NCBI GenBank assembly: GCA_964390265.1
Contig: CAYMHI010000002.1
Span: 4,254 to 68,253 of the forward strand
Length of the DNA stretch: 64,000 nucleotides
From: an uncultured Candidatus Saccharibacteria bacterium
GTDB lineage: Bacteria; Patescibacteriota; Saccharimonadia; CAILAD01; BJGX01
Direction: 5' to 3'
The position numbers were made by a program, and so were the translations under genes. The notes under the pieces were generated by a model. The model was not told where the DNA came from and did not search any database. It saw only the letters and a list, made by a program, of their open reading frames with translations. Of this stretch, positions 2,948-32,928 are shown one piece after another. Position 1 is the first letter of the stretch. Each line of letters starts with the position of its first letter.

Positions 2948-4333
2948 GTGGATAAAAAAAATGTAGAGCTGTGGCAAGCAGCTCTGGGCAGATTAGAATT
3001 AAGCGTTTCTCCAGCTAGTTATAATACCTGGATAAAAACATTACAGTTTGGTGGTATTAAGCCACCAGTAGCTACTATATATACTCCAAATTTTATGTCT
3101 AAAAACTATGTAGAGCATACCTTTTATCAAAATTTACTCGATGCCCTCTCTCAAGCAAACCCACAAATTACTGAGCTTGAATTTGCGGTTAGTCACAACA
3201 CTAGTACTAAAAAAGATAAATACGCCGAGGCCAGTTTATTTGATCAGAGTAAAAAAACTAAAGAGCGAGAAACTTCACCTCAACCTACAACCAAACAAGT
3301 TAGTTCTACACCTGTGCAGACCGGTATTCAAGCTGGCTACACCTTCGAGACGTTTATTGTAGGTTCAAGTAACCGTTTAGCTTTTTCGGCCGCTCAGCTA
3401 GTAGTGGAGAAACCAGGAGTAGCTTATAACCCATTATTTTTGTACGGCCCAGCTGGTGTGGGTAAAACTCACTTAATGTGGGCGATTAGAAATGAGATTA
3501 CTAAGCTTCAGCCAGAATTTAGCTCGCACTACATTACTAGTGAAACTTTTACCAACGAATATGTTAACGCTATTAGAAGAGGTGAAGAATTTAGTAATAA
3601 ATACCGAGAAGTAGACTTGTTATTTGTAGATGATATGCAATTTATTGCCGGTAAAGAGAAGACTCAAGAGGAGTTCTTTCACACCTTTAATGCCTTACAT
3701 CAAAATGCTAAACAAATTGTACTCTGCTCAGATAGACCACCTAAAGAGATACCTACTCTTGAGGAGAGGTTGAGATCGAGATTTGAGTGGGGATTGGTGG
3801 CCGATATCAACCCGCCAGATCTTGAGACTCGTATAGCGATAGTATTAAACAAAGCGGCTCGACAAGACATAGTACTAGACGAACAGGTGGCGGAATACAT
3901 AGCTCAGTCTGTAGATAAAAACATCCGCGAACTAGAGGGTGCGCTCACTAAAATAATCGTACATTGTAAGGTTCATAATACACCTATGACACTAAGTGTA
4001 GCCCAAGAGGTTTTTGGTGAATTAGCCAACACAAAACCTCAATTAAGTGCTAATAGTGTAGTTGAAAAAACAGCCCGGTTTTACAATCTCACCCCGGCCG
4101 ATATTTTGGGCGTTAAGCGCGATAAAGAGATAGTGCTACCTCGTCAGATTACTATGTATATACTAAGAACTAATCTAAATCTTAGTTACCCAAGAATAGC
4201 CGCGCAACTAGGTGGTAAAGACCACACCACTATAATGCATGGTCAAAAGAAAATTGAAAAATTAATAAAAGAAGATAGTAGTTTTAAAAAAGAGATAAGT
4301 GAACTTAATGAGTTTATTAGCTCATCGAGATAA
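2948..4333 (+). CDS. dnaA: chromosomal replication initiator DnaA
   Basis: 461 aa, GTG start; Walker A GPAGVGKTHL; C-terminal DnaA-box binding helix (ILGVKRDKEIVLPRQITMYIL...DHTTIMH). Confidence 0.95.
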   Translation: MDKKNVELWQAALGRLELSVSPASYNTWIKTLQFGGIKPPVATIYTPNFMSKNYVEHTFYQNLLDALSQANPQITELEFAVSHNTSTKKDKYAEASLFDQSKKTKERETSPQPTTKQVSSTPVQTGIQAGYTFETFIVGSSNRLAFSAAQLVVEKPGVAYNPLFLYGPAGVGKTHLMWAIRNEITKLQPEFSSHYITSETFTNEYVNAIRRGEEFSNKYREVDLLFVDDMQFIAGKEKTQEEFFHTFNALHQNAKQIVLCSDRPPKEIPTLEERLRSRFEWGLVADINPPDLETRIAIVLNKAARQDIVLDEQVAEYIAQSVDKNIRELEGALTKIIVHCKVHNTPMTLSVAQEVFGELANTKPQLSANSVVEKTARFYNLTPADILGVKRDKEIVLPRQITMYILRTNLNLSYPRIAAQLGGKDHTTIMHGQKKIEKLIKEDSSFKKEISELNEFISSSR

Positions 4334-4616
4334 TTAGTATTGTGGATAACTATGTGTATAAGTTGTGCAAACTGTGTGTATATGGCCGGTATCTATACAC
4401 AACTCTTACACAAACAATCTGTGGTTTAAAACCTAGGGGTGGAAAAAGTCTAGTTATGCATAGTCTGTACCCCACTCAATCACAACCTTACACACAAAGC
4501 ACAAGAGTTATTTTTAAGCCTAGCATAAGTAAAATAATTGCTTATACCCACTATCCACAATACCTACTATTACTACTACTAAAGAATATATATAAATATG
4601 ATAAGATGAGGAGTAT
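4334..4616. promoter_or_regulatory. dnaA-dnaN intergenic oriC candidate (DnaA boxes plus AT-rich unwinding element)
   Basis: Perfect reverse box TGTGGATAA at 4341-4349; cTATCCACA at 4552-4560; several 7/9 boxes; AT-rich tract 4561-4616. The track ORF 4342..4620 here is judged spurious. Confidence 0.55.
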
Positions 4617-5717
4617 ATGAAACTTTCTGTATTACAAAGTAATTTAAATAAAGCATTAAGTGTTACTAGTAGATTAATTCAGACTAATAACAGCCTACCA
4701 GTACTAAGTAATGTATTATTACAAACCAAAGATGGTCGTCTAGAGCTACAAGCTACAAACTTAGAAATAGCTATTTCTTATAAGATTGGCGCCAAGATAG
4801 AAAAAACTGGTAGTCTAAGTGTCCCCGCTCGCCTGCTTAGTGATCTAATTAACACCCTGCCTAACGATAAAATACAATTAGTACAGGTCAAAGACAATCT
4901 AGAAATTCACACCAACCAGCTTAATTCAGTAATTAATGGTATAGCAGCTAGTGAGTTCCCTAAGATTCCTGAGGTTAAAACTACTAAGCAATTTAGTATT
5001 GCAGTTAATGATTTTGTAGACGGCTTAGAGTATGTGTTGCCAGCTGTTAGCCTAGATGAGTCGCGACCGGTATTAACTGGGGTGTATTGTAAGGTAGAAT
5101 CGTCAGTTTTAACTTTTGCCGCTACCGATAGTTACCGTTTAGCTCAATACACTATTTCTGGTGTTAAAATCGATGATATTGAAGTTATTATTCCCCACCG
5201 CACTATTCAAGAGCTAATTCGAATTATTAAAAGTGAATCTATTACTGAGTTAGATGTAGGTGTAAGTGCAACCGAGGTGGTATTTTCATCTAAAAACTTT
5301 ACACTCACCTCACAACTAATTGAAGGTAGTTACCCAGATTACACTAAGATAATTCCACCCAACTCTCAAACATCAGTAGTGATTAATAAAGATGATTTAC
5401 TCAGTGGCCTAAAAATCGCTAGTTTATTCTCTAAAGAAAATGCCAATACTATAAGCCTGGCGGTAGTAAAAAACGGTTTAACAATTCAGTCTCAGGGTGC
5501 GCAGGTAGGTACCAACGAATCTAAACTAGAAGCAAAAACCACCGGTAATAATAAAGAAATTAATCTTAACGCTCGCTATCTTATAGATACCTTATCGGTT
5601 ATTGATAGTAAGTCTATACTATTGTCTCTCAATGACAAGCTCGACCCATGCGTGGTTTCTGCTAATAATAAAAAATCTACCTCCAACATTCATATTATTA
5701 TGCCTTTACGGAGCTAA
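4617..5717 (+). CDS. dnaN: DNA polymerase III beta sliding clamp
   Basis: 366 aa with three-domain clamp-like layout; sits in the canonical position after dnaA. Confidence 0.9.
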   Translation: MKLSVLQSNLNKALSVTSRLIQTNNSLPVLSNVLLQTKDGRLELQATNLEIAISYKIGAKIEKTGSLSVPARLLSDLINTLPNDKIQLVQVKDNLEIHTNQLNSVINGIAASEFPKIPEVKTTKQFSIAVNDFVDGLEYVLPAVSLDESRPVLTGVYCKVESSVLTFAATDSYRLAQYTISGVKIDDIEVIIPHRTIQELIRIIKSESITELDVGVSATEVVFSSKNFTLTSQLIEGSYPDYTKIIPPNSQTSVVINKDDLLSGLKIASLFSKENANTISLAVVKNGLTIQSQGAQVGTNESKLEAKTTGNNKEINLNARYLIDTLSVIDSKSILLSLNDKLDPCVVSANNKKSTSNIHIIMPLRS

Positions 5718-5729
5718 AAGGTAAATTAA

Positions 5730-6782
5730 ATGATAACCCACCTGGCGCTCAAGCAATTTCGTAACCACGCCGCGCTCAATTTAGACTTCAACTCTAATTT
5801 AGTTGCTATTACCGGCCCAAATGCATCTGGTAAGACCAATATTCTAGAAGCTCTCTATATTAGCTCACTTACAAAGTCGTTTAAAAATACCGATAACAAA
5901 CTAGTTCTACATGGAAGTAATTTCTTCACTATAGATAAAGTAGATAATAACAATAATATACATATTAGATTTACCCAGACAGATCTTAGTCGCGCTAAGG
6001 CGCTCAAGGTAAACAAGGTAGCCAAACCTCTTTACTCTATTATTGGTCAGAGCCCAATTACGCTTTTTGAACCTAATGATCTGTATTTACTCACTGGTTT
6101 ACCATCATTGCGACGCAACTACCTAGATAAAATACTTTCACAAGTAGATAAGGCCTACCTACAAAACCTTAGGCTATACAAAAAAATAATTCATCACCGC
6201 AACAGCTTACTGAGGCGAGCTAAAAAGGAAAATGTTAGAAATATAGATGAACAATTGTTTGTATTAAATATTCAACTAGCTAAGCCGGGCTACTACCTTA
6301 CAAAGAAACGCCAAGAGTTTATTAGTAGCTTAGTAAAAAGCTTAAATAATTATTACCAATTAATAAGCGGTGAATCGGCCAAAATAGTAGTAGAATTTCA
6401 TGCGAGCGCTAGCTCTAGTCAAGATTTACTAAATAAAATAGAACTTGCTGTGCAAAAAGACAGGGCTTGCGGGTTTAGTACAGTGGGCCCGCACAAAGAA
6501 GATTTCAATGTATCACTGCGGGGTCATAACTTAACAGACTCTGCCTCGCGAGGAGAGCTTAGGAGCTTAGTGTTGGCCTGCAAGCTCTCAGAACTAGACT
6601 ATATAGAAAAGAAGCTCTCACGCCGCCCTACGTTACTACTAGACGATGTCTTAAGTGAGTTAGACGACAAACGTCAAAAGTTTTTACTAAGTAGTTTGAG
6701 TATGCAGCAGACTTTCTTAACTACCACCCACTTACCAGATAATTTAAAACTAAAATTTCAACATATTGAGTTACCACTATGA
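5730..6782 (+). CDS. recF: DNA replication/repair protein RecF
   Basis: 350 aa; Walker A GPNASGKTNILEA; an SMC-like signature; LLLDDVLSELD Walker B. Confidence 0.9.
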   Translation: MITHLALKQFRNHAALNLDFNSNLVAITGPNASGKTNILEALYISSLTKSFKNTDNKLVLHGSNFFTIDKVDNNNNIHIRFTQTDLSRAKALKVNKVAKPLYSIIGQSPITLFEPNDLYLLTGLPSLRRNYLDKILSQVDKAYLQNLRLYKKIIHHRNSLLRRAKKENVRNIDEQLFVLNIQLAKPGYYLTKKRQEFISSLVKSLNNYYQLISGESAKIVVEFHASASSSQDLLNKIELAVQKDRACGFSTVGPHKEDFNVSLRGHNLTDSASRGELRSLVLACKLSELDYIEKKLSRRPTLLLDDVLSELDDKRQKFLLSSLSMQQTFLTTTHLPDNLKLKFQHIELPL

Positions 6783-7075: not shown

Positions 7076-7855
7076 TTAATCACCAGTCAAGTTATCTAGT
7101 TTTATTTTTGAACCTGGCGGAATACTATCTGAGTTTATTAGTTTTGCAAGTGTAGGATTATCGGCGGTTAAAACATAGCTTTTTCTATCCACTTTAGTAC
7201 TGGCAAGAAAATCACTGATAGACTTAGCAGTATATGCTATCTCACTTTCTGGATAAGGAGGAGTTAGGGTTGGATAAAACAAATCTTTAACTACTACAAC
7301 GGTATTAGTTTTACCATTACTATAGTTAATCTTACCCCCTACAATTGCGTAGTTTTGAGTATTATAGGGTAAAAAATTAGTTATAGTGTTAGTTGCTGGC
7401 TTAGGGTCGGTGTCTTCTATTTGTAGTTTCTGTTGTGCCTCAGTTAAGTCAGAAAATGGAATGTATTTAGTCTTAAAATTAATCTTAGTATTTTTTAATA
7501 CATCTCCTTTATTAGACACAATTTCTTTTATTGTAATTGTGTATCTTTGATTAATTTTCAAAGTATATAGTTTTAATATTAAAGTTTTTTTATCAACACT
7601 TATTCCACTTACTATAGAGTTGTTATTGCTATCACCCAAAGTAATTTTACTAGCATCAATTTCTTTATTAAAGTTAATATTTAACTGGGTTGATGATGAT
7701 GGGAAGTTTTGGTTAGCTTCAGGTAAAGTATCAACCAGCCTAAATTTTTCAAAAGATTCTCTATTAAAACTGTAAATTACTATTCCTATAAAAATTATAA
7801 CTATAGCCACTATAACCGATATTAAAATATATTTGTTCTCAAATAATTTATTCAT
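7076..7855 (-). CDS. bitopic membrane protein, T4SS-associated (VirB8-like topology?)
   Basis: 259 aa with an N-terminal TM helix (ILISVIVAIVIIFIGIVIY) and an extracytoplasmic domain. Its stop overlaps the start of the upstream hydrolase gene, suggesting the same operon. Confidence 0.4.
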   Translation of the reverse strand: MNKLFENKYILISVIVAIVIIFIGIVIYSFNRESFEKFRLVDTLPEANQNFPSSSTQLNINFNKEIDASKITLGDSNNNSIVSGISVDKKTLILKLYTLKINQRYTITIKEIVSNKGDVLKNTKINFKTKYIPFSDLTEAQQKLQIEDTDPKPATNTITNFLPYNTQNYAIVGGKINYSNGKTNTVVVVKDLFYPTLTPPYPESEIAYTAKSISDFLASTKVDRKSYVLTADNPTLAKLINSDSIPPGSKIKLDNLTGD

Positions 7856-8961
7856 TGTACCCTCATAAAACCGGTTAAGTATGGCGCATTAATACTATGG
7901 GTTGATTGTTTTACTTGGTCGCTTTCGTTACCGCCAATAGATGTGTATATACTTACACCATCATAACTAATTACTAAGTTAACATGACTTGGGTAGGGCG
8001 ATATACCTTCTTTGTAAATCGCCACATCACCGGGTTGTGGTTTGAAGCCCTGTTCGCCCTTTGGATGATAGAAGCCATTCTGAATAGCGTAATCTAATAT
8101 TCCTTGCGCTGAACCTATTACTCCATCACCACCACCTTTATTAAGTGGCTGACCGGCTTCATTAAATATATAACTTATAAAGAATGCGCACCAAGGATTA
8201 CTGCCACCACCAAACTTACTAGGGTCTTGTGCGCCACCATTCCAGGCTGCTAGTTCTCTTTTGGCAACATCAACTACCCCTGTATTTACAGTTGGTCCAG
8301 CATCATCACAAGCGTCGCTATTAGTAGAGTCTGGAGTAGTTGTAGGGGTTGTAGGTGCAGCACCCCCTGAAGCCTGTAAATACCTCGCGAAGTCTGGTGC
8401 ATCGTTATATAGTAATGGAATTTCCGCACCTTGGCCGGCATTAAAAGCCGCCACCACACTATTAGCATAGGCAATATCGGCCGCATTTGGATTATTTATA
8501 TTAGCCGGTTCATAATGGCTGACTGCTAGTTTGAAAACATCTTCACCTAATGTTCTTATTTTTGTAGCATATTCTATATAGGCCACAGCATCTTGCATAG
8601 CCTCAGGCGCATCTTTTGCACGTGCAAAAGGAATAGCAGGAGGATAAGCTTGTTTTACCGAGTTCCATGTACGGTTGACGTATTGGTATTTACCTGATGC
8701 TGTTGATTCTGGGTTTTGAGCTGTAGGATCACCACCACTTTCAACTGACATTATAGCTCTTAGAAGTTTATCTTCAAACCCACCACTAGCAGGAGTGGAC
8801 GTGCTTGTGCTAGAGCCACAATCGGTTTGATCGTACCAAAAACGCTTCTCTATCTCTAATCGCTGTTCTCTATTAAGTGCAAATGTTTGAAGTGGTATAG
8901 CTATAAACCCAACCACTATAAGTATTAAAAATGTTTGTATTATTCTTTTCATATCAACCAC
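7852..8961 (-). CDS. secreted peptidoglycan hydrolase with lytic transglycosylase (SLT) and CHAP domains (PrgK/TcpG/VirB1-like)
   Basis: 369 aa; N-terminal TM/signal. SLT-like block LLRAIMSVESGGDPTAQNP...SGKYQY. C-terminal CHAP domain with catalytic Cys (GGSNPWCAFFISYIF) and His (SHVNLV). Confidence 0.7.
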   Translation of the reverse strand: MVDMKRIIQTFLILIVVGFIAIPLQTFALNREQRLEIEKRFWYDQTDCGSSTSTSTPASGGFEDKLLRAIMSVESGGDPTAQNPESTASGKYQYVNRTWNSVKQAYPPAIPFARAKDAPEAMQDAVAYIEYATKIRTLGEDVFKLAVSHYEPANINNPNAADIAYANSVVAAFNAGQGAEIPLLYNDAPDFARYLQASGGAAPTTPTTTPDSTNSDACDDAGPTVNTGVVDVAKRELAAWNGGAQDPSKFGGGSNPWCAFFISYIFNEAGQPLNKGGGDGVIGSAQGILDYAIQNGFYHPKGEQGFKPQPGDVAIYKEGISPYPSHVNLVISYDGVSIYTSIGGNESDQVKQSTHSINAPYLTGFMRVQ

Positions 8962-11900
8962 CTGTCACCGACCAGTGCCACGGCTCTGACTCTAAATTAA
9001 TTAGACCATAGTTAGCCGCGTTGGCTACTAACCAATTAAAACCCGGGCTTCCTCTGTCAATCGTATTACCACCTGTAGTAAAGTCAATAGCTAAACCTTT
9101 TTCGTGGTTAGATGTACCAGGTATTGCAGTAGGTACTCTACAGCTACTAGGTGAAGCAGTGAAAACATCTGGGCAGCCATTAGTAGTACGTAAACCAACT
9201 TGTTCTTCATACGATCTAAAACCACCGCCACCAAATAATATGCCAGCCGCCTGTGCGTCTTTTAGTAATTTATTAAGCTGACTTGCTAGTGATACGTTAA
9301 TATCTATTACTCCACCACCTGGTGCGGCAACATCACAAACCATTATCTTATTAGCAGGTACCTGACCTGGTCCATAAGTTTGGGCAACTCCGTTAACTAG
9401 GTTTGGGCCAGTACTAGTAGTTATGCCTGGTTCACTTGGGCAAGGGGTACCGCTTGTGTCGGCATCGGGGTCGGGTGCACCAATCGGGCCAGTTGGTCCG
9501 CTAGTGCCGCTATTAGCATAAATACTTGGGTTGTCGGCATCACTACTTAGGCTTGCCATTTGGTCTAATACTATATTGTAGTACACATACATACGGTACT
9601 TAACCGGTAAAGAATTAATATCTTTGGCGTCTTGTAGTATTTCTTTACAGTCATTAAATTTATTAAACTTACCCTCTGGATCATCGGTTCGTACTGCCGC
9701 AACGTTTCCGTTAGCATCTAATATTACACCCCTGTGCCACTCTGGGTGAAAGATAAACCATTGTACTGCATTAGCCCCGGGATACTTATCTCTAATACTA
9801 TCAGTTAATGTTCGATTACCAATTTCGCTCAAAGGCTTTGTTCTAATCTTAAAGTACTGGCTTGTAGGTATTTTTTGTTTAAAGCACGAATCATAATGTG
9901 TGAGTTTACGTTTTTCTGCCGGGCTACCATTAGCTTTTAGGTTTTCTATATAGGTAGCATTTTCTAGCATACTAATATTAAAATCACCCTGGGGTATGCC
10001 GGCCGTATCTATCTTGAGGTATTTGTCTCCGCTGGTATTGGCAGCAAAGGCCTTATTGTGCTGACCAAAGCTATAGTAAAGCGCTGAACTATGAATATTT
10101 GCGAGTGATTTTAATGGGTTAAGTAGTTGTTTAAACAATCCTGTTCCTGCTGTCATGGCGGTTTTGGGGGTAACGGTATTTTGATTAATAATACTTCGCG
10201 CCGATCGTATATTATCTAATGCAAACAGCCTATAGCCTACCCCCCTGTCCTTTTCTTCTTCTCTACGTAGGTTTTCAGAGTCGATAGCTACTTGATTGGC
10301 CTCGGTCTCCGTTAAAAACCTTCCACCTATTCTTAAAAAGTAATCATTCATTAATTGCCTAAACCCAGCGGCCTGACGATTATAATTATCTGGGCCAGAT
10401 TCTAAACCACTAACTGCAGTAACCGAGCCAGTTCTTACAAAAGAAGTAATAATCTCTTTGAGGCCAAAATCTGATGGGCTATTAAATACTCCCTCTGATT
10501 GAGCAACAATTTCTAGCTTGAGATCGCGATAGCCATCAGCCACCATTTTATTACCAGTATCAGCTAATGCATCGCCAAATATTCCACCCGGGGCGCTTAT
10601 AAAAACGCATCCATTTTTTAATTTCTGTATAGCCTCTGTGTCATATAAAGCAGTCTGTCTGGCGTTGTAAGACCTTGTAGAGGTGGCCTCTGGGTTTTGT
10701 TGTACTCCATTTAAGGAGTTATGTACGTCAATTGAGTATGCAGCACTACTAGCCCAATTATCTTGCTGAGCAATAGTAGAGTTGTTTTCTACATTGCTGA
10801 GTTGATCGGCCTTGCGGGTGTCGGCTAGAGTGGTAATTTTAATTGCGCCCCGTTCTGTACTAGCTAGTCTACTCTCTATCGCTTTTCTAGCGTTCTTAGC
10901 AGACTCCTCTTCTGTAGGGTCGTCACCTAAATCTAAAAATCCCATAATAAAAGGACAAAGTGTATTGGCTAAACCAGTGGTTACGACTCGCGATTGACCA
11001 TTATCTTTAGTGGGAATATTAATATAACTCTGTAATTGCATATCATAAGGACTTTTACCTGCGGCCATATCTTCATACATCTTGTTGATACCTGCAACCA
11101 AGTTAGACTTGTCGTCGCTGTAAGGTATTTGATCGTCTGGGTTGGCGGCGTTATATTCTCTTACGGCGTCTCTATAGCTATTTTGAATTATATCTATTTG
11201 GCCCTGATAATTAGAGAAATCAATTGAATCCTCTTTTTTTGGAGTTATACGGTTAAGAGTTTTATCATATACATACCTGTCTACCTCGGCTTTATTTCTT
11301 CTAAACTCCTCAGTATCTTTTTTGCTTGCATAATTGAGCCTAACGTCGGCTAACTGGTTAATTTCTCTAGTAACTGGCTGACGAGCCATCAAATTAAATA
11401 TTGGGTACTGTTGTTGAATGCAGTTTGTGGCTAGTATGTTATTGCTTAGATTGTCAATCTGAATTGTAGTGTCCGTCTTGGTGTTTACTACGTAATCTGG
11501 TACAAACCGTACTCTACCCTCACTATTAATTACTTGCTTTAGCTTGAGTTCATAGCCGCAACCTTTTTTATCAAGTGTTTGGTACTGAGCTTTCTTCCAA
11601 TCAATTTTTGAAAGACGCTCAAGGGTAGAGCCTGGCGGTATAGTTGTAGGTGCTGCAGCAATAGCAGTGTTGGGTCCGTGGTAATCTACCTCTCCAAGGC
11701 CAGGTAGAGCATCTATAGCATCTTTTAGAATATTTTTGCCAAAGGCCCTAGCGAGGTCATAGCCATAATCTCGCAATTTTTGATTAGTTAAGACTTTACC
11801 AATAATTTCGTCGGGGTTTTGCATGATATAAAAAAATGTAAATAGTGGTATAAGCGAAATAACCACAGTTACTAATAAAATTACCCCTACTCCGCGTATA

Positions 11901-12397
11901 CCCCCTGCTTTTTCAAAAGCAGTACCCGCACCTGGCGCTATAAATTTATTTAACCCCTCCTTAATTGCTAAATTAGCTGCTTGCTCGGCTTTACCGGCTT
12001 TGGCCTCGGTATTTTTTTCCATAGGGGTTTTAGGTACTTTTTTACCAGCCTTACCTCCAGCCCCACCATCAGACTTATCGGATAATTTTTTTAAAGCATC
12101 TAAAGTTTTGGATTGCTTAGGATCTTTTGCGGCTCCGCCCCCTGCAGCACTTTTAGCTAATTTATCGCCGGCACCACCTTTTACACCTAGTGGAGCAGAT
12201 TTTAAGTTATCCATGCTTGTTGGTAAATCTTTGGCTGGATTAAAAGCTGATTGCTTACCAGCTCCTCCACCCATTTCTTTACCGGCGCTACCCTTGTCTA
12301 GTGGGCTAACTGGCAAATTACCGTCACCCAAGCCCTCACTTTGGCCAGGCATGTTTTTCTTACTATTGCCTTCGCTTTTTTTGGGGTTATTATCCAT
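8954..12397 (-). CDS. large membrane-anchored surface protein with C-terminal M15 (VanY-like) zinc peptidase domain
   Basis: 1147 aa. Gly/Lys/Ala-rich low-complexity N-terminus and a single TM (GVGVILLVTVVISLIPLFTFFYIM). C-terminus carries SNHEKGLAIDF (SxHxxGxAxD) and EPWHW, hallmarks of LAS/VanY M15 peptidases. Confidence 0.6.
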   Translation of the reverse strand: MDNNPKKSEGNSKKNMPGQSEGLGDGNLPVSPLDKGSAGKEMGGGAGKQSAFNPAKDLPTSMDNLKSAPLGVKGGAGDKLAKSAAGGGAAKDPKQSKTLDALKKLSDKSDGGAGGKAGKKVPKTPMEKNTEAKAGKAEQAANLAIKEGLNKFIAPGAGTAFEKAGGIRGVGVILLVTVVISLIPLFTFFYIMQNPDEIIGKVLTNQKLRDYGYDLARAFGKNILKDAIDALPGLGEVDYHGPNTAIAAAPTTIPPGSTLERLSKIDWKKAQYQTLDKKGCGYELKLKQVINSEGRVRFVPDYVVNTKTDTTIQIDNLSNNILATNCIQQQYPIFNLMARQPVTREINQLADVRLNYASKKDTEEFRRNKAEVDRYVYDKTLNRITPKKEDSIDFSNYQGQIDIIQNSYRDAVREYNAANPDDQIPYSDDKSNLVAGINKMYEDMAAGKSPYDMQLQSYINIPTKDNGQSRVVTTGLANTLCPFIMGFLDLGDDPTEEESAKNARKAIESRLASTERGAIKITTLADTRKADQLSNVENNSTIAQQDNWASSAAYSIDVHNSLNGVQQNPEATSTRSYNARQTALYDTEAIQKLKNGCVFISAPGGIFGDALADTGNKMVADGYRDLKLEIVAQSEGVFNSPSDFGLKEIITSFVRTGSVTAVSGLESGPDNYNRQAAGFRQLMNDYFLRIGGRFLTETEANQVAIDSENLRREEEKDRGVGYRLFALDNIRSARSIINQNTVTPKTAMTAGTGLFKQLLNPLKSLANIHSSALYYSFGQHNKAFAANTSGDKYLKIDTAGIPQGDFNISMLENATYIENLKANGSPAEKRKLTHYDSCFKQKIPTSQYFKIRTKPLSEIGNRTLTDSIRDKYPGANAVQWFIFHPEWHRGVILDANGNVAAVRTDDPEGKFNKFNDCKEILQDAKDINSLPVKYRMYVYYNIVLDQMASLSSDADNPSIYANSGTSGPTGPIGAPDPDADTSGTPCPSEPGITTSTGPNLVNGVAQTYGPGQVPANKIMVCDVAAPGGGVIDINVSLASQLNKLLKDAQAAGILFGGGGFRSYEEQVGLRTTNGCPDVFTASPSSCRVPTAIPGTSNHEKGLAIDFTTGGNTIDRGSPGFNWLVANAANYGLINLESEPWHWSVTGG

Positions 12398-12511
12398 TTT
12401 ATATATTAAAACTCATTATATATTTGCAACAAAACTCTTATCCTTATATTCAACAATTATAGCATGTATTGACAGGCTATCTACTCAGACTAAACCATAA
12501 AATAATTAGGT

Positions 12512-14371
12512 CTAACCCGTCGCTTGTTCTACCGAAATATCTTGTCCATCGCCTACACTACTAACTGCCTTGCCGGCATCTATAAGGTCTTGAGGGTTAG
12601 TAGTGATTAGCTCTGTTTCGGTGGGACTAGCCAAAACATGCAGAATAATGTGACTAAGCCCAGCAAAGAACAGACCCTCACCTACCGGAAACTGACTAAG
12701 GCGTTTTTTCTCTTCACTAGTTAGTTTAAAAGTCTCAGCTACTACATCTACTGCAGCTGGGTTTTGTTTGAGTAATAGCTGTAGGCTTGAGTTATTTACA
12801 ATTGCTCTACCTAAGCGTGTACCTAAAAAGTCCTCTACATCTTGAGAGATGGTAGTTAAGCCCAAAAAGTACTTACGAGCGCGTTTAGCAATAGAGAACA
12901 TAAACATTGCTGAGTCTTGATACTGCATTAACTGCCAAGCCTCATCAATTATTAATATGCGCTTTTTCTTCTCAGACTTTACTCTGTTCCAGACATAGTT
13001 AAGGACTATATACATACCAATTGGTCGTAGCTCGTCTTCAAGGTCGCGAATATTAAACACCACAAATGGGTTATTAAGATTAACATTACTTTGTTGTGAG
13101 AATATACCAGAGAAAGTGCCTTCGGTAAATCGTCGCAACCTGGCAGCCAGTGCCGGGCCATTCCCACCCATTTGATTAAGGTTGTTGTATAAGTCAAGCA
13201 TCACGGGCGGCTCGGCCGTATGAGTTAGTGGATCGTTGGTAATGCCTTTTTGACCGTAGGTGTTAATAAGCGCAATGTCCAAATCTGACTCCTCGGTAGA
13301 GCTTAGCTCGCCCATCATTAGCCGCAGCAGACCATGAAGCATAATAATATTTGCTCGCAAGGCGTTATCGGCCTCATCAGAGTCTATAGCTGTGGGAATA
13401 TCAAAGGGGTTTACATGGCTATCGCTGGTAAGACTAAGCTGCAAAAAACTACCACCTACTGCGTCGCACAGTGTTCTGTATTCGTTTTCTGGGTCTATTA
13501 CTATTACCTCGGTGCCAAACATCAGCGAACGCAAGGCCTCTAGCTTAACGGCAAAAGATTTACCCGCACCAGACTTTGCAAACACCACCATATTGGCGTT
13601 TTCAAGACTAAACCTATCAAATAACACCAACCCGTTGTTGTGGCGATTAATGCCATAGAGTATACCCTCTTGGTTACTAAGATTGGCTGTAGTAAATGGG
13701 AAGGTGGTAGATATTGCACCGGTGTCCATATTTCGCTCTACCCCCAACAGGTCGGTGCCAAGCGGCAGCGTAGAGGTAAAGCCCTGCTCCATTTGAATAG
13801 TAGCTGGCTTGGTATAAATAAGGCTAGTGCCAAAGGTAGATTCTATTTTTTTAACTAGCTCATCGAGCTCTTCTAGGTTGCGCCCGTAGATTGTTACGTA
13901 TAAACCTAGTCTAAAAAATCGCTCCTCCCCCACCTGCAATTTGTCGCGCATTTCTTCGGCATCGCTTATTGAGGCCTCTAGTGCTGGGTCTCTTACCTTG
14001 CCTTTTTCGGCGTTAATTGAGTAACTTGCCTCAAGCTGAGTTACTTTCTTTTTGAGGTTTTTTAGAACTACCTGGCTTTCTACTGGCTCAATGTTGAGAC
14101 TAATATCTATAACCTCATCCATATTAATTATTGGGCTTAGCCAGCCGGTAAACAGACTGCGTGGGTAGGCGTAAACAAATAGGGTTCTGGCAAAGCGCGA
14201 ACCTATTCTTATAAAATTGGCCTCTACCTGAATGGAGCTAGGGGCAATCACATCGCGCAATGTCACCACTCCTTGGCGGTATACTTGTTGAGCCTTTTGT
14301 TCAGCACTCATGTTGGCCTGTTGCTGAGGTGTTAGCTTAGGTGCGGCAGGTTTTTTATTACCAAATATCAT
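12512..14371 (-). CDS. virB4: VirB4/TrbE/CagE-family T4SS ATPase (middle and ATPase domains)
   Basis: 619 aa; Walker A VVFAKSGAGKSF; Walker B ILIIDEAWQLM; DVIAPSSIQVEANFIRIG...LFVYAYP block typical of VirB4. Starts immediately after the TAA stop of the upstream ORF (14369-14374 = TAA then ATG on the minus strand). Confidence 0.85.
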   Translation of the reverse strand: MIFGNKKPAAPKLTPQQQANMSAEQKAQQVYRQGVVTLRDVIAPSSIQVEANFIRIGSRFARTLFVYAYPRSLFTGWLSPIINMDEVIDISLNIEPVESQVVLKNLKKKVTQLEASYSINAEKGKVRDPALEASISDAEEMRDKLQVGEERFFRLGLYVTIYGRNLEELDELVKKIESTFGTSLIYTKPATIQMEQGFTSTLPLGTDLLGVERNMDTGAISTTFPFTTANLSNQEGILYGINRHNNGLVLFDRFSLENANMVVFAKSGAGKSFAVKLEALRSLMFGTEVIVIDPENEYRTLCDAVGGSFLQLSLTSDSHVNPFDIPTAIDSDEADNALRANIIMLHGLLRLMMGELSSTEESDLDIALINTYGQKGITNDPLTHTAEPPVMLDLYNNLNQMGGNGPALAARLRRFTEGTFSGIFSQQSNVNLNNPFVVFNIRDLEDELRPIGMYIVLNYVWNRVKSEKKKRILIIDEAWQLMQYQDSAMFMFSIAKRARKYFLGLTTISQDVEDFLGTRLGRAIVNNSSLQLLLKQNPAAVDVVAETFKLTSEEKKRLSQFPVGEGLFFAGLSHIILHVLASPTETELITTNPQDLIDAGKAVSSVGDGQDISVEQATG

Positions 14372-15283
14372 TTATGATTTACCTCCTGTTGCTGTAGTCG
14401 ATTGAGCCGAACTTGCAGGTGGGTTATTTGGCGCCACTTGCTGCCCTGGGCTAGGTTGTGGTTGAGCTTGCATAGCCTGGCGGTTGGCGGCTGAGTAAAG
14501 ATCGTCGGGCGTAGGTTCTTTGGGTGTAGGTGGGTGCACTTGGGCTGGGCCGCCGGTGCGCGTAACTGCCGGAGTGCCTATATCATCAACACTCGTGAGG
14601 CTTTGGCTTTGGCTCTCAGCCACATTGTAAGAGTTGTAAAACAGCTCAATTATCTCTTGAGTATTGAGTATGGCCGAGCGTACACCTATTTGGGCCAAGC
14701 CTTGGGCTACTTGGTTGGTGCGCTGCATTAACTCGTTTTTGTGTTTCTCATAATCACCCATTGACTGAGTGGCCTCAGCCGACTCATTAGATGCCCCACG
14801 CAATTTAGTAAGAATATTGGCCTTAGCAATGCCGGCCATATAGTATGGCACCACTACGTAAAAACGTTTTTCCATAATATTTACTTCATCGAGCAAACTT
14901 TTAATGTTGTCTACATAATCGTCCATTAGTGTGGCAAGCAACGGGTTGGGCTGGTCGCTTTGAATTTTTTCTAGCTTGCCCAAGTAATCGTCTAGGTCAA
15001 TTTTACGAGACTGTATAACTATTTGAATAGGGTGATGTAAGCCATTCACAAAGCCCTGAAAACCAAACTCAATAGCGTCTTTTTCGTCTGGGCTTTTAAG
15101 ATCAAAGTTGGTAGGTGAGCAAATAATTACCATACGCAAGCTGCCATCGCGCATTATTACTACCCCATCTTTTATTTCAGAAAAAGGCAAATGACTCTGA
15201 GTGCTCATTTGCTTATTCTCTTGTTTTGGCGGTGGTGTAATTGAGTTTACGTATTCTTGCTGTTGGGGGGTAACTTGTGCCAT
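14372..15283 (-). CDS. VirB4 N-terminal-domain-like protein (upstream piece of an apparently split VirB4)
   Basis: 303 aa. LPFSEIKDGVVIMRDGSLRMVIICSPTNFDL...FQGFVNGL follows the VirB4 N-terminal pattern (lPYs..d.vi.tKdGsl..v.k..G..fe). C-terminal Pro/Gln-rich linker ends in TAA directly before the ATG of the ATPase ORF, in the same frame. Confidence 0.5.
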   Translation of the reverse strand: MAQVTPQQQEYVNSITPPPKQENKQMSTQSHLPFSEIKDGVVIMRDGSLRMVIICSPTNFDLKSPDEKDAIEFGFQGFVNGLHHPIQIVIQSRKIDLDDYLGKLEKIQSDQPNPLLATLMDDYVDNIKSLLDEVNIMEKRFYVVVPYYMAGIAKANILTKLRGASNESAEATQSMGDYEKHKNELMQRTNQVAQGLAQIGVRSAILNTQEIIELFYNSYNVAESQSQSLTSVDDIGTPAVTRTGGPAQVHPPTPKEPTPDDLYSAANRQAMQAQPQPSPGQQVAPNNPPASSAQSTTATGGKS

Positions 15284-15368: not shown

Positions 15369-16199
15369 CTAACTACTTTGCTGCTTGAGCTGTACGCTGG
15401 CGCCAGGCTCAAGAGGCTGCGGTTGAGCCTGCTCGTTGGCTCTTAGCGCCACTTGCTTAATAGTTAGCCCTCCGCCCTGCATGGCTACTTGCGTAGCATT
15501 GGGGCTAGGGGCTGTTGAGGGCTGGGTAGAGCTGGGCTCTATTACGCTACCAGGCTTATTAATTGCCTGTTGTACTTGGTTGGCGGCTTTGTCGCGAGTG
15601 TTTTCTTTGGCGCTTTGCAGTAGCTCGCCCACGGCAGCCGCACGTTGGCTGTTTTCGTCGAGTACATCGTCTTTTTGGGTGGCCAATTGATCGGGGCCTT
15701 GGGCATCACCTTGGGCTTGCGGGCCTATTATACGCTGCGCATATATTGTGGCCTCGTTATCACCTTCGTGCAATTGAATAGTAGGATCTTTAAAATTACC
15801 TCTGGTATCTATTATATTAGCGAGCTGTTTGAGCTGGCCGGTGGTGACTGTTGAGGTTTTCTCGAGATTTTCTTTGGGTTTCTCGGGCTCTTTTACTATT
15901 ACGTCTTTTCTATCGTCTTTTATCCATATGCGTCGGCGCGGCACTATTAAAAATCTTATAAAGGCTACTACGTAGTCTTCAAACGGCACGCCCTCGCGCG
16001 AGCCAAAGCCCAGTAGTAAAAAAAACCCAGTAACCGGCAGGGCAAATATTACTGCCACTATTATAGAGAAGCTAAATATTCGCCACATCAAAAATCCCCA
16101 TAATAAACCAATTATTACGTATATAAATTGCTTTACCGAGAGTGGCCCCAGTATTTTGTCTTCGGTTTCTACATTTTGCGGTACTTTGTATTGACCCAT
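15369..16199 (-). CDS. VirB3/PrgI/ConD-like small membrane protein with disordered C-terminal extension
   Basis: 276 aa. Two N-terminal TM helices (FIYVIIGLLWGFLMW, FSFSIIVAVIFALPVTGFFLLLGF). Position immediately upstream of VirB4 matches Gram-positive systems (ConD-ConE). Confidence 0.4.
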   Translation of the reverse strand: MGQYKVPQNVETEDKILGPLSVKQFIYVIIGLLWGFLMWRIFSFSIIVAVIFALPVTGFFLLLGFGSREGVPFEDYVVAFIRFLIVPRRRIWIKDDRKDVIVKEPEKPKENLEKTSTVTTGQLKQLANIIDTRGNFKDPTIQLHEGDNEATIYAQRIIGPQAQGDAQGPDQLATQKDDVLDENSQRAAAVGELLQSAKENTRDKAANQVQQAINKPGSVIEPSSTQPSTAPSPNATQVAMQGGGLTIKQVALRANEQAQPQPLEPGASVQLKQQSS

Positions 16200-16253: not shown

Positions 16254-18965
16254 CTAATTTTTTATTTTAACTAAGTGTATTGAGTTTGGGTTTGCTAAGT
16301 ACTCTTGGTAGGTAACCATTTGCAGCCCTAGAGAATTGTAGTCAACTCTATAGAACCCAAGCTTGTCGGTTAGTACAGATGTTGGGTGGGTAAGCAATAT
16401 ATCTTGCGCCATCACACCTACGTATTCTGTGTTGCTCCATAGGTACTTAAACTTATAAATTTTTATACCGTTTTCAAGATTATTTACCAACTTAACATTT
16501 CTTTTGAGTCTAATATCTGATCGCGGTACTGGAGCTGGTGTTGGAGGGGGTGCAGGTGGCTGATTAATGCCTTGAGTCGCAAGGTCGAAGTTTGCCCTAC
16601 CCTCGTATACTGCCCTAGCTCTTGCCACTGCAGCTTGAGGGGTTTCACCTGGTCGCGGTGTTGCAGTTTGTGGATCTTTTGCCGCGTGTCTCGCTGTGGC
16701 AGCTCTATGAACCTGTTGATAAGCTGCATATTCTCTTGTTGCTCCTGCAGGCAGAATACCAGCATCAATATCTGATTTAATAGCAGCAGGATCGCTATAC
16801 TGGTCGAGCATTGTGTTATGTAGATTGGTATATGCCCTTGCTTCTTTTACCTGCGCAGGTGTTGTTGGATCTAGTCTCCCCTGTCTCTCCATATCCCACG
16901 CTATAACAGATTCGGCATATGTTTTACCTCCAGCAGCTCTAGCTAAGGCATCGTATTTTTGCCTTTCTGAAGTGCTCATAGGGGCTTTACCATCTAATAT
17001 TGCAGCCCTAGCATCACGTTGTTTTTCGGCATGTCCTTTTTCAATAACACCTTTAGCAACGCCAGCTCTTAAAGTTGGCTTACCATCTCTTCCAGTTTCC
17101 CCTGAAATTCTCTGTTGCTCCTCAAGGTCCATAAGCCCAATATCTTTCTTTTGAGCTTCTTTTACAGAGTCCTCAAGCCTCAAGCCTTTCTGTTTAACAC
17201 CTCTCCCTGCCTTTGTGCCCTTAAGTAAACTAGATTCACTAGCTTTACCAAATCCTTTGGCTTTGAGCTCTGCCAATTTACCCTCCTGAGCACTTTTACT
17301 GACTGCTCCAGTAGCTGCTTTGCCAGCCCTAGTATCTTTGGCGTTGGCTATTGCTTTACTACCCGCCTCTTTGGCCTTGGCCATAATTGCTCCACTCATC
17401 TTGAGGGTTTTGGGTATCAATACAAGCACAATTATAGGTATTAATATTGATATGATTGAACCCATAAAATTGGCAAAACCTCCACTAGGCCCACCAGCGG
17501 TTAGGTCGCCCTCAGCAAACAAGAAAGAGAATACAGCACCCAGTACAAAAAGTAAGTTTACAAGTAAGAACATTATGCTTAGCTTAAGAAAGTACTGCCA
17601 CCATTTTTTAAAGAACTGTTCGGTGTTGGGTAGTACCCAGGCCGCAAAAGCTAGCGGAGCCGATAGTACCAGGCCAAGCAAGAATAGATAACGAGCCACT
17701 ATGTATATAAATGCTATTATCGCAACAACCAAGCCCACTAGCATTGTGAGATTGAATATTGCAAACTTACCCAAAGCCTCTAACATATCTCCACCATTTT
17801 TAATTCTATCTATCTGAGGCACGATAGTTTGCGAAAATGCCTCTGCGGGTGTAGAGCCGGTAACACCCGGAAACGCTCTAAGGATTTGATTAGGTAGCGC
17901 AATGGCCAATATATTGCCAAGGTCTAGCACTGCCTGGCATATCAGTAATGAAAACTGAGTAAGTATTATAGCTACTATTAGCTTAGGCAAAGCCTTTTTG
18001 ACCGTATAATTATCAAGACCAGGTATGGCTACAAAGTTAGCCAGTATAATAAAAAGAAATATTAGTATATAAAAAGAATTTGCTAAAGTAATCATACTGT
18101 TTACAGCATTTTTTAGGTTTTGGCTGTTAGTAAGATCGGGGTTCTCGAGTAACTTGGTAACAGCTGTAATCATCTTTGTTAGAGTGTCGGTTAAGAACTC
18201 GCTAATAGGACAGAGTACAAAACTAAGGGCGCTATCTAGATTGTCCTCGCATCCACCACTTGCCTCCAACAACTCAGCCTGCACCTCTTCTGTAAATGTA
18301 GTCGTATCTAAACCCTCACCATTAAAAGCACTTCCATCCTCCTTAACACAATTTCCAGGATTTGTAACTCCACACCTGTCGCCTGCCGGGTCTGTAAGTG
18401 CATCGTCTATATTACCAACAGCAAAAAGGTGATTAGGGTCTGAGTTGTCAGTTACAGCGCCAGTTGCATCAGATGCATATGCAAATTTTGCACTTTCTTG
18501 CGTTAAATTGAAGTGTAGACAGTTTCTAGATAACAATCCATTATTGTCTGGGTTACAAAATATTGGGTAGCCTGCATTTTGACTAAATTGAGGATTGTAA
18601 AAATAATCCCTACAAGTTGCATTTGGTGTAAGTGTTCCGCATATCAAGGTGGGATAAGTACTACCTATTTGTGAATTCCAGTCTGCTGCGTTTAGTAATG
18701 CCCCAACCGGTGTATTACTGACTATTCCACCTACCCGTGGTATGGCATTAGGATCTACTGTAAGAGTATCAAAAAAACCTAAAATAGAATTCATCAAACT
18801 ACCAACGGCATTTGGTCTTTTGCATTCAATATGCCCACTATCTTGCCATTGGCACAAAACCTCACTAGATAACGCTTGCGCCGGTTTGGCATTCAAAAAC
18901 AATCCGGCAAATACAAACACAAAAGCCAGCAAAGGTAATATTAAAAATCGGGAGAGTTTATTCAT
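16254..18965 (-). CDS. VirB6/TrbL-like polytopic membrane protein with N-terminal Cys-rich secreted domain and C-terminal peptidase S74 intramolecular-chaperone domain
   Basis: 903 aa. Signal peptide MNKLSRFLILPLLAFVFVFAGLFLNAKPAQA. Five to seven TM helices in the middle. Ala/Lys-rich region, then SDIRLKRNVKLV...IKIYKFKY...GVMAQDIL...YRVDYNSLGL matching the S74 consensus (SDxRLKxNI...GxIAQE...VDY). Confidence 0.6.
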   Translation of the reverse strand: MNKLSRFLILPLLAFVFVFAGLFLNAKPAQALSSEVLCQWQDSGHIECKRPNAVGSLMNSILGFFDTLTVDPNAIPRVGGIVSNTPVGALLNAADWNSQIGSTYPTLICGTLTPNATCRDYFYNPQFSQNAGYPIFCNPDNNGLLSRNCLHFNLTQESAKFAYASDATGAVTDNSDPNHLFAVGNIDDALTDPAGDRCGVTNPGNCVKEDGSAFNGEGLDTTTFTEEVQAELLEASGGCEDNLDSALSFVLCPISEFLTDTLTKMITAVTKLLENPDLTNSQNLKNAVNSMITLANSFYILIFLFIILANFVAIPGLDNYTVKKALPKLIVAIILTQFSLLICQAVLDLGNILAIALPNQILRAFPGVTGSTPAEAFSQTIVPQIDRIKNGGDMLEALGKFAIFNLTMLVGLVVAIIAFIYIVARYLFLLGLVLSAPLAFAAWVLPNTEQFFKKWWQYFLKLSIMFLLVNLLFVLGAVFSFLFAEGDLTAGGPSGGFANFMGSIISILIPIIVLVLIPKTLKMSGAIMAKAKEAGSKAIANAKDTRAGKAATGAVSKSAQEGKLAELKAKGFGKASESSLLKGTKAGRGVKQKGLRLEDSVKEAQKKDIGLMDLEEQQRISGETGRDGKPTLRAGVAKGVIEKGHAEKQRDARAAILDGKAPMSTSERQKYDALARAAGGKTYAESVIAWDMERQGRLDPTTPAQVKEARAYTNLHNTMLDQYSDPAAIKSDIDAGILPAGATREYAAYQQVHRAATARHAAKDPQTATPRPGETPQAAVARARAVYEGRANFDLATQGINQPPAPPPTPAPVPRSDIRLKRNVKLVNNLENGIKIYKFKYLWSNTEYVGVMAQDILLTHPTSVLTDKLGFYRVDYNSLGLQMVTYQEYLANPNSIHLVKIKN

Positions 18966-32642: not shown

Positions 32643-32682
32643 TAAAGAAATCCCCCAGATACAAATGTACCTGGGGGCAGTG

Positions 32683-32755
32683 TGGGCCTGGAGGGGATCG
32701 AACCCTCAACCGAGCGATTATGAGTCGCCTGCTCTAACCATTGAGCTACAGGCCC
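32683..32755 (-). tRNA. tRNA-Met/Ile2 (anticodon CAT), elongator type
   Basis: GGGCCTGTAGCTCAATGGTTAGAGCAGGCGACTCATAATCGC...GGGTTCGATCCCCTCCAGGCCCA; G1-C72 pair; CCA not encoded. Confidence 0.8.
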
Positions 32756-32759
32756 TACG

Positions 32760-32834
32760 TGTCCGAAGAGAGATTTGAACTCTCGACCCCTTCCTTGTAA
32801 GGGAAGTGCTCTGACCCAACTGAGCTATTCGGAC
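32760..32834 (-). tRNA. tRNA-Val (anticodon TAC)
   Basis: GTCCGAATAGCTCAGTTGGGTCAGAGCACTTCCCTTACAAGGAAG...GAGTTCAAATCTCTCTTCGGACA. Confidence 0.8.
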
Positions 32835-32839
32835 GGGAG

Positions 32840-32923: not shown

Positions 32924-32928
32924 TAAAG

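What the first reader, a model, noticed from the sequence alone, without database searches (positions are those of the whole stretch)
12512..15283. VirB4 ATPase apparently split into two in-frame ORFs by a single TAA inside a low-complexity linker
ORF 14372..15283 carries the characteristic VirB4 N-terminal domain (LPFSEIKDGVVIMRDGSLRMVIICSPTNFDL...). It ends ...TATGGKS-TAA, and the next codon is the ATG of ORF 12512..14371, which holds the VirB4 middle and Walker A/B domains. Both are in the same frame with no spacer. The junction lies in a Pro/Gln/Ala-rich disordered segment present on both sides (…QPQPSPGQQVAPNNPPASSAQSTTATGGKS* MIFGNKKPAAPKLTPQQQANMSAEQKAQQ…). Possible explanations are a genuine two-piece VirB4 that is translationally coupled, stop-codon read-through, a recent nonsense mutation in an otherwise intact T4SS, or a sequencing error.
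Basis: seen in the sequence. Interest (0 to 1): 0.6.

Follow-up and report, generated by a model that had tools for sequence, protein, structure and literature searches.

The report
Two-gene VirB4 of Saccharibacteria T4SS
The apparent stop codon inside a VirB4 secretion ATPase is the normal boundary between two tightly packed genes, a TrsD-like N-terminal piece and a short VirB4, that are separate in hundreds of Saccharibacteria, an arrangement already published, so the finding is real but ordinary.

Summary
On the minus strand, ORF A (14372-15283, 303 aa) ends in TAA, and the next codon is the ATG of ORF B (12512-14371, 619 aa), in the same frame. It is not a broken gene. ORF A belongs to a large family of stand-alone proteins of about 200-480 aa (Pfam TraC-like, remote TrsD/TraD homologues). 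That family occupies roughly the first 130-200 positions of full-length VirB4 profiles, and its model matches only R388 TrwK/VirB4 among solved structures. ORF B is a VirB4 ATPase lacking exactly that part. The pair is conserved in at least 578 Saccharibacteria species genomes. Across 83 junctions, 52 have a 1-nt stop/start overlap, 9 a 1-nt gap and 9 spacers of 30-462 nt. B is in A's frame in only 11, so the in-frame TAA is incidental. A Shine-Dalgarno (AGGAGGT here) lies inside A's tail, 9 nt before B's ATG, and is conserved across relatives. Independent assemblies carry the identical junction, which rules out a sequencing error. Quinonero-Coronel et al. 2025 already report TrsD homologues next to virB4 throughout Patescibacteria. 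Staphylococcal pSK41 has the same trsD-trsE split. Verdict: known, translationally coupled gene pair; low interest.

The parts
14372..15283 (-). ORF A: 303-aa TrsD-like / Pfam TraC-like protein, the detached N-terminal module of VirB4 (33.2 kDa)
   Evidence: ORF. PF26593 TraC-like is precomputed for this exact protein. NCBIfam gives VirB4_plasma positions 97-233/894 (E 1.1e-5) and TrsD 25-200/201 (E 3e-3). The fold matches R388 TrwK/VirB4.
14594..15205 (-). Folded core of ORF A (aa 27-230), a mixed alpha/beta domain
   Evidence: AlphaFold2 model built on 129 diverse sequences; pLDDT above 90 over most of residues 30-230, with a dip to about 67-69 at residues 151-170.
14375..14593 (-). Low-complexity C-terminal tail of ORF A (aa 231-303), rich in P/A/T/Q/S
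   Evidence: Unconserved and variable in length in alignment A1. pLDDT is 51-64. It corresponds to the linker (residues 253-313) of the natural fusion P0235.
14381..14387 (-). Shine-Dalgarno AGGAGGT for ORF B, embedded in the Gly-Gly codons of ORF A, 9 nt upstream of B's ATG
   Evidence: Sequence. Identical in a strain with 94% protein identity. An SD-like motif is present at 56 of 66 tight junctions in relatives, against 1-7 of 66 in most control windows. The conserved 'GG-x-x-stop' ending is visible.
14369..14374 (-). Stop/start junction TAA-ATG: TAA at 14374..14372, ATG at 14371..14369
12512..14371 (-). ORF B: 619-aa short VirB4 ATPase (68.7 kDa) lacking about the first 175 positions of full-length VirB4
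   Evidence: NCBIfam conju_CD1110 at 379 bits, above the 325 cut-off, aligned to profile positions 176-731/752; VirB4_CagE positions 239-729/792. Pfam P-loop_TraG, AAA_10, DUF87 and CagE_TrbE_VirB.
13556..13579 (-). Walker A motif AKSGAGKS (B aa 265-272)
12941..12958 (-). Walker B motif ILIIDE (B aa 472-477)
15369..16199 (-). PrgI family (VirB3-like) membrane protein, immediately upstream of ORF A
   Evidence: Pfam PrgI, E 4.1e-14. It sits in the same position in relatives.
16254..18965 (-). VirB6/TrbL-like polytopic membrane protein (903 aa)
   Evidence: Pfam TrbL_3, E 8.4e-7.
8954..12397 (-). 1147-aa protein with a C-terminal VanY peptidase domain, downstream of ORF B (cell-wall hydrolase of the cluster)
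   Evidence: Pfam VanY, E 3.2e-11. A VanY or Peptidase_M23 protein holds the same position in relatives.
7852..8961 (-). SLT + CHAP protein (VirB1-like peptidoglycan hydrolase)
   Evidence: Pfam CHAP, E 3.9e-7, and SLT, E 1.8e-4.
20103..20855 (+). Two T4SS pilin genes (VirB2-like), divergent from the cluster
   Evidence: Pfam T4SS_pilin, E 9e-12 and 1e-10.

Best explanation
ORF A and ORF B are two real, separately translated genes of the chromosomal, origin-proximal type IV secretion cluster of a Saccharibacterium. ORF A is the TrsD-like (Pfam TraC-like) protein, corresponding to the first subdomain of the N-terminal domain of a canonical VirB4. ORF B is a short VirB4 holding the rest of the N-terminal domain and the ATPase domain. 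Shown here: the two-gene state is ancestral and conserved across Saccharibacteria. The stop/start junction is nearly always within a few bases, most often a 1-nt TAATG overlap. A Shine-Dalgarno is kept inside A's otherwise unconstrained tail. The two proteins cover complementary parts of full-length VirB4 profiles, and a rare natural fusion is colinear with A, a linker, then B. Inferred: ribosomes finishing A re-initiate or are recruited at the embedded SD, so A and B are made in roughly equal amounts (translational coupling). Also inferred: the two proteins associate non-covalently to rebuild a complete VirB4 N-terminal domain, which in R388 contacts VirB3; the VirB3-like PrgI is encoded just upstream here. 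The shared reading frame in this window is incidental.
For: All 120 listed homologues of A (51-94% identity) are stand-alone proteins of 251-358 aa from Saccharibacteria/Patescibacteria. An exhaustive profile search found 2917 cluster representatives, and 149 of the best 150 are 134-478 aa. At least 578 species genomes encode A. The gene order PrgI - A - B - hydrolase is conserved. Junctions in 83 non-duplicate loci: 1-nt overlap in 52, 1-nt gap in 9, direct adjacency in 3, spacers of 30-462 nt in 9; B is in A's frame in only 11. An SD-like motif lies in the 16 nt upstream of B's start in 56 of 66 tight junctions, against 1-7 of 66 in most control windows. The tail of A ends 'GG-x-x-stop' in nearly all relatives. 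The junction AGGAGGTAAATCATAAATG is identical in assemblies from four runs and in a 94%-identity strain. Complementary coverage: the A family hits CD1110 positions 2-134, VirB4_CagE 5-202 and PRK13853 3-180, whereas B hits CD1110 176-731 and VirB4_CagE 239-729. Of 129 diverse A-family members, 127 hit TrsD, 124 VirB4_plasma and 99 CD1110. The model of A (pLDDT 82) has R388 TrwK/VirB4 as its 14 best PDB matches, all at probability 1.00. The natural fusion P0235 matches A at residues 13-252 and B at 314-890, and it occurs in at least 3 samples downstream of PrgI. pSK41 trsD-trsE shows the same break: B 40-588 aligns to TrsE 36-626, and the A profile aligns to TrsD at E 7.6e-6. PMC12102498 reports 2272 TrsD homologues in Patescibacteria, 1664 of them next to virB4, and the S. 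epibionticum one is listed as essential.
Against: There are no expression or protein data, so translational coupling and equal stoichiometry are inferred from geometry and the SD alone. Physical association of A with B was not modelled or tested. The window protein's own hits are weak: TrsD at E 3e-3 and 17 bits against a curated cut-off of 200, and VirB4_plasma at E 1e-5. The case therefore rests on family-wide profiles and on the fold. The Foldseek TM-scores are modest (0.35-0.42, normalised over a query that includes the disordered tail), and the output does not say which TrwK residues were aligned. Nine relatives have 30-462-nt spacers, so tight coupling is not obligatory.
Confidence: 0.93

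Rival explanations
1. Stop-codon read-through: the in-frame TAA is partly read through, so that a functional fused VirB4 of about 102 kDa is made alongside or instead of the two pieces.
For: In this window and its closest strains A and B share a frame with no spacer. A natural single-chain version (P0235) exists, so a fusion is probably functional.
Against: B is in a different frame from A in 72 of 83 relatives. The in-frame state (11 of 83) is rarer than the one-third expected by chance, so the shared frame is not under selection. The stop is TAA, the most common stop at this junction (61 of 83), and from general knowledge the least leaky bacterial stop. B has its own strong SD and ATG. There is no unusual RNA structure around the stop (z -0.21).
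Confidence: 0.03
2. Recent nonsense mutation: an originally single VirB4 gene was recently interrupted, giving a pseudogene or a decaying T4SS.
For: The two ORFs are colinear with full-length VirB4 and share a frame.
Against: The two-gene state is conserved down to about 35-40% identity and in at least 578 species genomes. Both ORFs are intact and highly conserved; B is 62-92% identical in most relatives. The S. epibionticum homologues are essential. The same break point occurs in pSK41 trsD/trsE.
Confidence: 0.01
3. Sequencing or assembly error that created a false stop codon.
For: None beyond the a priori possibility.
Against: The exact ORF A, followed immediately by B, is present in an independent assembly (SRR16481184). 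The identical junction occurs in three further runs from a strain with 94% protein identity.
Confidence: 0.005
4. ORF A is an independent accessory protein that shares ancestry with the VirB4 N-terminus, for example an old duplicate with its own role, and does not complete ORF B.
For: [quoted passage not shown] Some TrsD homologues, notably in Gracilibacteria, are not encoded next to virB4. Nine relatives have sizeable spacers.
Against: B lacks exactly the profile positions that A supplies, so A is complementary and not redundant. The rare fusion is colinear: A, linker, B. The junction is tightly coupled in most genomes.
Confidence: 0.05

Closest known systems
TrsD homologue + VirB4 of the Patescibacteria T4SS (Quinonero-Coronel et al. 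2025, PMC12102498; S. epibionticum ML1 cluster SEML1_0006-0019, Wang et al. 2023, PMC10633639)
   Same: It is the same system. A chromosomal cluster next to dnaA contains PrgI/VirB3, VirB6, a TrsD-like gene next to virB4, cell-wall hydrolases and VirB2-like pilins. The paper already states that TrsD is remotely homologous to the N-terminal part of VirB4 and is mostly encoded next to virB4.
   Different: Nothing substantive differs. In the passages I read the paper does not describe the stop/start overlap, the embedded SD, the complementary profile coverage or the rare fused form. Those are small additions made here.
TrsD / TrsE of staphylococcal conjugative plasmids pSK41 and pGO1 (and TraD / TraE of pIP501, according to the name of NCBIfam model NF041427)
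   Same: The local order is the same: a small gene (trsC), then trsD (227 aa), then trsE (672 aa, VirB4-like). The break point is the same: B 40-588 aligns to TrsE 36-626, and A 24-221 aligns to TrsD 30-217.
   Different: Similarity is very remote: 25% identity for B/TrsE, and detectable only by profile for A/TrsD. pSK41 has a 14-nt spacer instead of adjacency. TrsD has no long disordered tail. The plasmid system is conjugative, with a relaxase and a coupling protein, whereas the Saccharibacteria system is chromosomal and needed for epibiotic growth.
Full-length single-chain VirB4 (R388 TrwK; CD1110 and Mbov_0397 families)
   Same: A plus B together cover the whole profile. The model of A matches TrwK chains. 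Walker A and Walker B motifs are present in B.
   Different: Here the first roughly 175-200 positions are a separate polypeptide with a 73-aa disordered tail.
Classical translational coupling at overlapping or adjacent stop/start codons in bacterial operons (established general knowledge)
   Same: Stop and start lie within a few bases of each other, and an SD sits inside the upstream coding region.
   Different: Coupling was not measured here. No SD-masking RNA structure was detected.

Membership tests
VirB4 family ATPase (ORF B) | Scores above the curated family cut-off of a VirB4 model | tested here: met
   NF045971 conju_CD1110: 379.4 bits against a cut-off of 325, E 3.5e-113.
VirB4 family ATPase (ORF B) | Walker A and Walker B nucleotide-binding motifs | tested here: met
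   AKSGAGKS at aa 265-272 and ILIIDE at aa 472-477.
VirB4 family ATPase (ORF B) | Complete N-terminal domain on the same polypeptide | tested here: not met
   The alignment starts at position 176 of 752 (CD1110), 239 of 792 (VirB4_CagE) and 279 of 894 (VirB4_plasma). The missing part is encoded by ORF A.
TrsD/TraD family (NCBIfam NF041427) (ORF A) | Scores above the curated cut-off of 200 bits | tested here: not met
   17.4 bits, E 3e-3 for the window protein. This makes it a remote homologue and not a member in NCBIfam's sense.
TrsD/TraD family (NCBIfam NF041427) (ORF A) | Detectable homology over the whole TrsD length | tested here: met
   127 of 129 diverse family members hit the model, best E 8.5e-13. 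hhalign of the family profile against pSK41 TrsD gives probability 84%, E 7.6e-6, 177 columns.
TrsD/TraD family (NCBIfam NF041427) (ORF A) | Encoded immediately upstream of a short VirB4-like ATPase | tested here: met
   Window, pSK41, relatives.
Pfam PF26593 TraC-like (ORF A) | Hit to the Pfam model | tested here: inconclusive
   A precomputed, unmarked PF26593 hit is listed for this exact protein and for nearly all homologues. The local Pfam copy returned no family for ORF A; I infer that it lacks this model.
VirB4 N-terminal domain fold (ORF A) | Structural similarity to the N-terminal domain of a solved VirB4 | tested here: met
   The 14 best PDB matches are all R388 TrwK/VirB4 chains (probability 1.00, E 5e-4 to 6e-3, 177-237 columns), and the next matches have probability below 0.3. 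Caveat: the target residue ranges are not reported, so the N-terminal placement comes from the profile positions.
Translationally coupled gene pair | Stop and start overlapping or within a few bases, conserved across relatives | tested here: met
   73 of 83 junctions have between a 14-nt overlap and an 8-nt spacer, and 52 are a 1-nt overlap.
Translationally coupled gene pair | Ribosome-binding site inside the upstream ORF | tested here: met
   AGGAGGT 9 nt upstream of the ATG; 56 of 66 relatives against 1-7 of 66 in most control windows.
Translationally coupled gene pair | Translation of B depends on translation of A | not testable with these tools
   This needs reporter assays or ribosome profiling.
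Programmed stop-codon read-through | The downstream ORF is kept in frame with the upstream ORF across relatives | tested here: not met
   Same frame in only 11 of 83 loci.
Programmed stop-codon read-through | Leaky stop or a stimulatory RNA structure | tested here: not met
   The stop is TAA, and folding of the junction gives z = -0.21.

The most novel reading that the evidence does not exclude
In the minority of lineages where A and B happen to share a frame with no spacer (this window, L018, L027), rare read-through of the TAA could give small amounts of a covalently joined, full-length VirB4 resembling the natural fusion P0235. Such a molecule might, for example, nucleate assembly of the hexamer. 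A milder version of the same idea: the conserved break point shared with pSK41 TrsD/TrsE means that the first VirB4 subdomain works as a detachable, separately regulated adaptor to PrgI/VirB3.
Probability: 0.04. Interest if true: 0.4.

Novelty: already known. Interest (0 to 1): 0.12.

Why it matters
It matters mainly for annotation. An automated or naive reading could flag this locus as a pseudogene, a read-through site or an assembly error. It is in fact the normal form of a T4SS that is essential for the epibiotic lifestyle of Saccharibacteria. This check adds a few small points to the published description. The TrsD-like protein and the short VirB4 cover complementary parts of full-length VirB4. 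Their junction is a conserved stop/start overlap with an SD that leaves a Gly-Gly footprint in an otherwise free-evolving tail. A rare natural fusion exists. Together these points support treating TrsD as the detached first subdomain of VirB4, which could guide structural work on monoderm and Patescibacteria T4SSs.

Tried and rejected
- The profile-profile comparison of the shallow alignment A1 (Neff about 2) with pSK41 TrsD failed (probability 2%). It worked only with the diverse alignment A3.
- A sequence search of the PDB with the A1 profile found nothing relevant.
- The first AlphaFold2 model, built on A1, was too poor to use (pLDDT 50). The second, built on A3, was good.
- A literature search for TrsD and TrsE returned only unrelated papers.
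- Guglielmini 2014 does not mention TrsD in its main text.
- My first junction script reported five loci with overlaps of 115-169 nt. Inspection showed that tblastn had run through A's stop.
- I looked for an SD-masking or read-through-stimulating RNA structure at the junction and found none.
- The pseudogene, sequencing-error and read-through readings were considered and rejected; see the rival explanations.
Full report
**Observation.** On the minus strand, ORF A (14372..15283, 303 aa) ends ...TATGGKS-TAA, and the next triplet is the ATG of ORF B (12512..14371, 619 aa). The two share a frame and have no spacer.

**What the two ORFs are.**
- ORF B is a VirB4-type ATPase. It scores 379 bits against the CD1110 VirB4 family (curated cut-off 325) and has Walker A and Walker B motifs.
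- The alignments of B begin only at position 176 of 752 (CD1110), 239 of 792 (VirB4_CagE) and 279 of 894 (Mbov_0397 family). B therefore lacks the first part of a canonical VirB4.
- ORF A on its own gives weak hits: VirB4_plasma positions 97-233 (E 1e-5) and TrsD/TraD (E 3e-3).
- I built a diverse alignment of 129 family members. Scanned one by one, 127 hit TrsD/TraD, 124 the Mbov_0397 VirB4 profile, 99 CD1110 and 42 the general VirB4_CagE profile.
- In ten members examined in detail, the hits fall at the extreme N-terminal positions of the full-length profiles: CD1110 2-134, VirB4_CagE 5-202 and PRK13853 3-180.
- A and B are therefore complementary, not redundant.
- An AlphaFold2 model of ORF A built on that alignment is confident for residues 30-230 and not for the tail (mean pLDDT 82). 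Its 14 best matches among solved structures are all TrwK/VirB4 chains of the R388 T4SS (probability 1.00). Nothing else exceeds probability 0.3.

**Is the split real and conserved?**
- All 120 listed homologues of ORF A (51-94% identity) are stand-alone proteins of 251-358 aa. Where a source names them, they come from Saccharibacteria or Patescibacteria.
- An exhaustive profile search found 2917 cluster representatives. Of the best 150, 149 are 134-478 aa long.
- A scan of one genome per species found at least 578 genomes that encode the protein.
- The gene order PrgI - A - short VirB4 - large hydrolase recurs in relatives.
- I analysed the A/B junction in 83 non-duplicate loci (which corrects an artefact diagnosed):

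| Junction geometry | Loci (of 83) |
|---|---|
| 1-nt overlap (TAATG type) | 52 |
| 1-nt spacer | 9 |
| Direct adjacency (including the window) | 3 |
| Overlaps of 4, 8 or 14 nt | 3 |
| Spacers of 2-8 nt | 6 |
| Spacers of 30-462 nt | 9 |
| No start codon assigned by the script | 1 |

- B's start is in the same frame as A in only 11 of 83 loci, fewer than chance would give.
- An SD-like motif lies in the 16 nt ahead of B's start in 56 of 66 tight junctions, against 1-7 of 66 in most control windows. One control window over a conserved coding motif reached 21.
- At the protein level this shows as a conserved 'Gly-Gly-x-x-stop' at the end of a tail that is otherwise unconserved and variable in length.
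- The junction RNA shows no unusual folding.

**Error or recent mutation?** The exact ORF A followed directly by B occurs in an independent assembly. A strain with 94% protein identity, from three further runs, has the identical AGGAGGTAAATCATAAATG although the neighbouring tail has diverged. Both readings are excluded.

**A natural fusion.** One representative, P0235 (898 aa), is a single chain. ORF A aligns to its residues 13-252 (36% identity) and ORF B to 314-890 (51% identity). A Pro/Ala-rich linker sits where the window has its stop/start. P0235 occurs in at least three samples, downstream of a PrgI gene. This supports the view that A and B are two halves of one functional unit, and that their disordered tails correspond to a linker.

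**What is known.**
- Quinonero-Coronel et al. [quoted passage not shown]
- They count 2272 homologues, 1664 of them associated with virB4. The homologue in S. epibionticum ML1 is listed as essential. Wang et al. 2023 describe that essential T4SS.
- The paper also notes that the cluster often lies near the replication origin. In this window dnaA, dnaN and recF (2948-6782) directly flank the cluster, and two T4SS pilin genes lie at 20103-20855.
- In pSK41 the order is trsC, trsD (227 aa), a 14-nt spacer, then trsE (672 aa). B 40-588 aligns to TrsE 36-626, and the A-family profile aligns to TrsD 30-217 at E 7.6e-6. The break point is therefore the same.

**Mechanism.**
- Shown: there are two genes with a conserved stop/start junction and an embedded SD, their domain content is complementary, and the fold of A resembles VirB4.
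- Inferred: translation of B is coupled to that of A, giving matched amounts, and A binds B to complete the VirB4 N-terminal domain.
- In the R388 machine that domain contacts VirB3 (established knowledge from the R388 structures, which are the entries matched). The adjacent PrgI gene fits this.
- Neither coupling nor the A-B contact could be tested with these tools.

**Verdict.** The arrangement is an ordinary and already published feature of Saccharibacteria T4SS clusters, so interest is low.

Noticed in passing
NCBIfam NF042935 SCO6880_fam; ORF B aa 43-205 (window about 13757-14245, minus strand) and A-family members P0188, P0212, P0221, P0234: The actinobacterial SCO6880 family profile (477 positions) is hit by A-family members at positions of about 237-298 and by ORF B at 312-476. 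That family may be a stand-alone protein covering the whole VirB4 N-terminal domain, which would mean VirB4 is split at a different point in Actinobacteria.
   Followed up: no
window 16254-18965 (-), aa 816-856: The 903-aa VirB6/TrbL-like protein has a weak C-terminal hit to Peptidase_S74, the intramolecular chaperone of phage endosialidase tail-spikes (E 1.1e-3, 19.6 bits, below the cut-off of 22). This would be an odd domain on a T4SS channel protein, if it is real.
   Followed up: no
window 8954-12397 (-) compared with L001 6805-8864 and L003 6836-8930: The giant protein downstream of virB4 has a C-terminal VanY domain in this window and in L003 and L086, but a Peptidase_M23 domain in L001 and L002. 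The cell-wall hydrolase module appears to be swapped between lineages.
   Followed up: no
window 2948-6782 (+): dnaA, dnaN and a recF-like SMC_N gene lie directly beside the T4SS cluster, so the cluster is origin-proximal. This agrees with the statement in PMC12102498.
   Followed up: partly
alignments A1 and A3; representatives P0121-P0270: The low-complexity tail of the TrsD-like protein varies widely in length; total protein length among the stand-alone representatives ranges from 134 to 478 aa. Some members also have long disordered N-terminal extensions, such as P0079, P0155 and P0211. Why reduced genomes keep such tails is unexplained.
   Followed up: no
L078 4745-5206; also L033, L039, L041, L062: A few Saccharibacteria have 100-462 nt between the TrsD-like gene and virB4. 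The 462-nt gap in L078 could hold a small inserted gene or a regulatory element.
   Followed up: no
L001 1-3067: This relative has two tandem VirB6/TrbL_3 paralogues (at least 759 aa and 655 aa) where the window has a single 903-aa gene.
   Followed up: no
window 32682-33012 (-): A tight cluster of four tRNA genes (Met-CAT, Val-TAC, Leu-TAG, Leu-TAA). In addition, four tRNA-Ser genes are scattered over the window.
   Followed up: no
window 12000-12500 (+): A 166-aa antisense ORF rich in P/A/L overlaps the low-complexity 5' end of the 1147-aa gene. It is most likely a spurious mirror ORF of the Gly/Ala/Lys-rich coding region.
   Followed up: no
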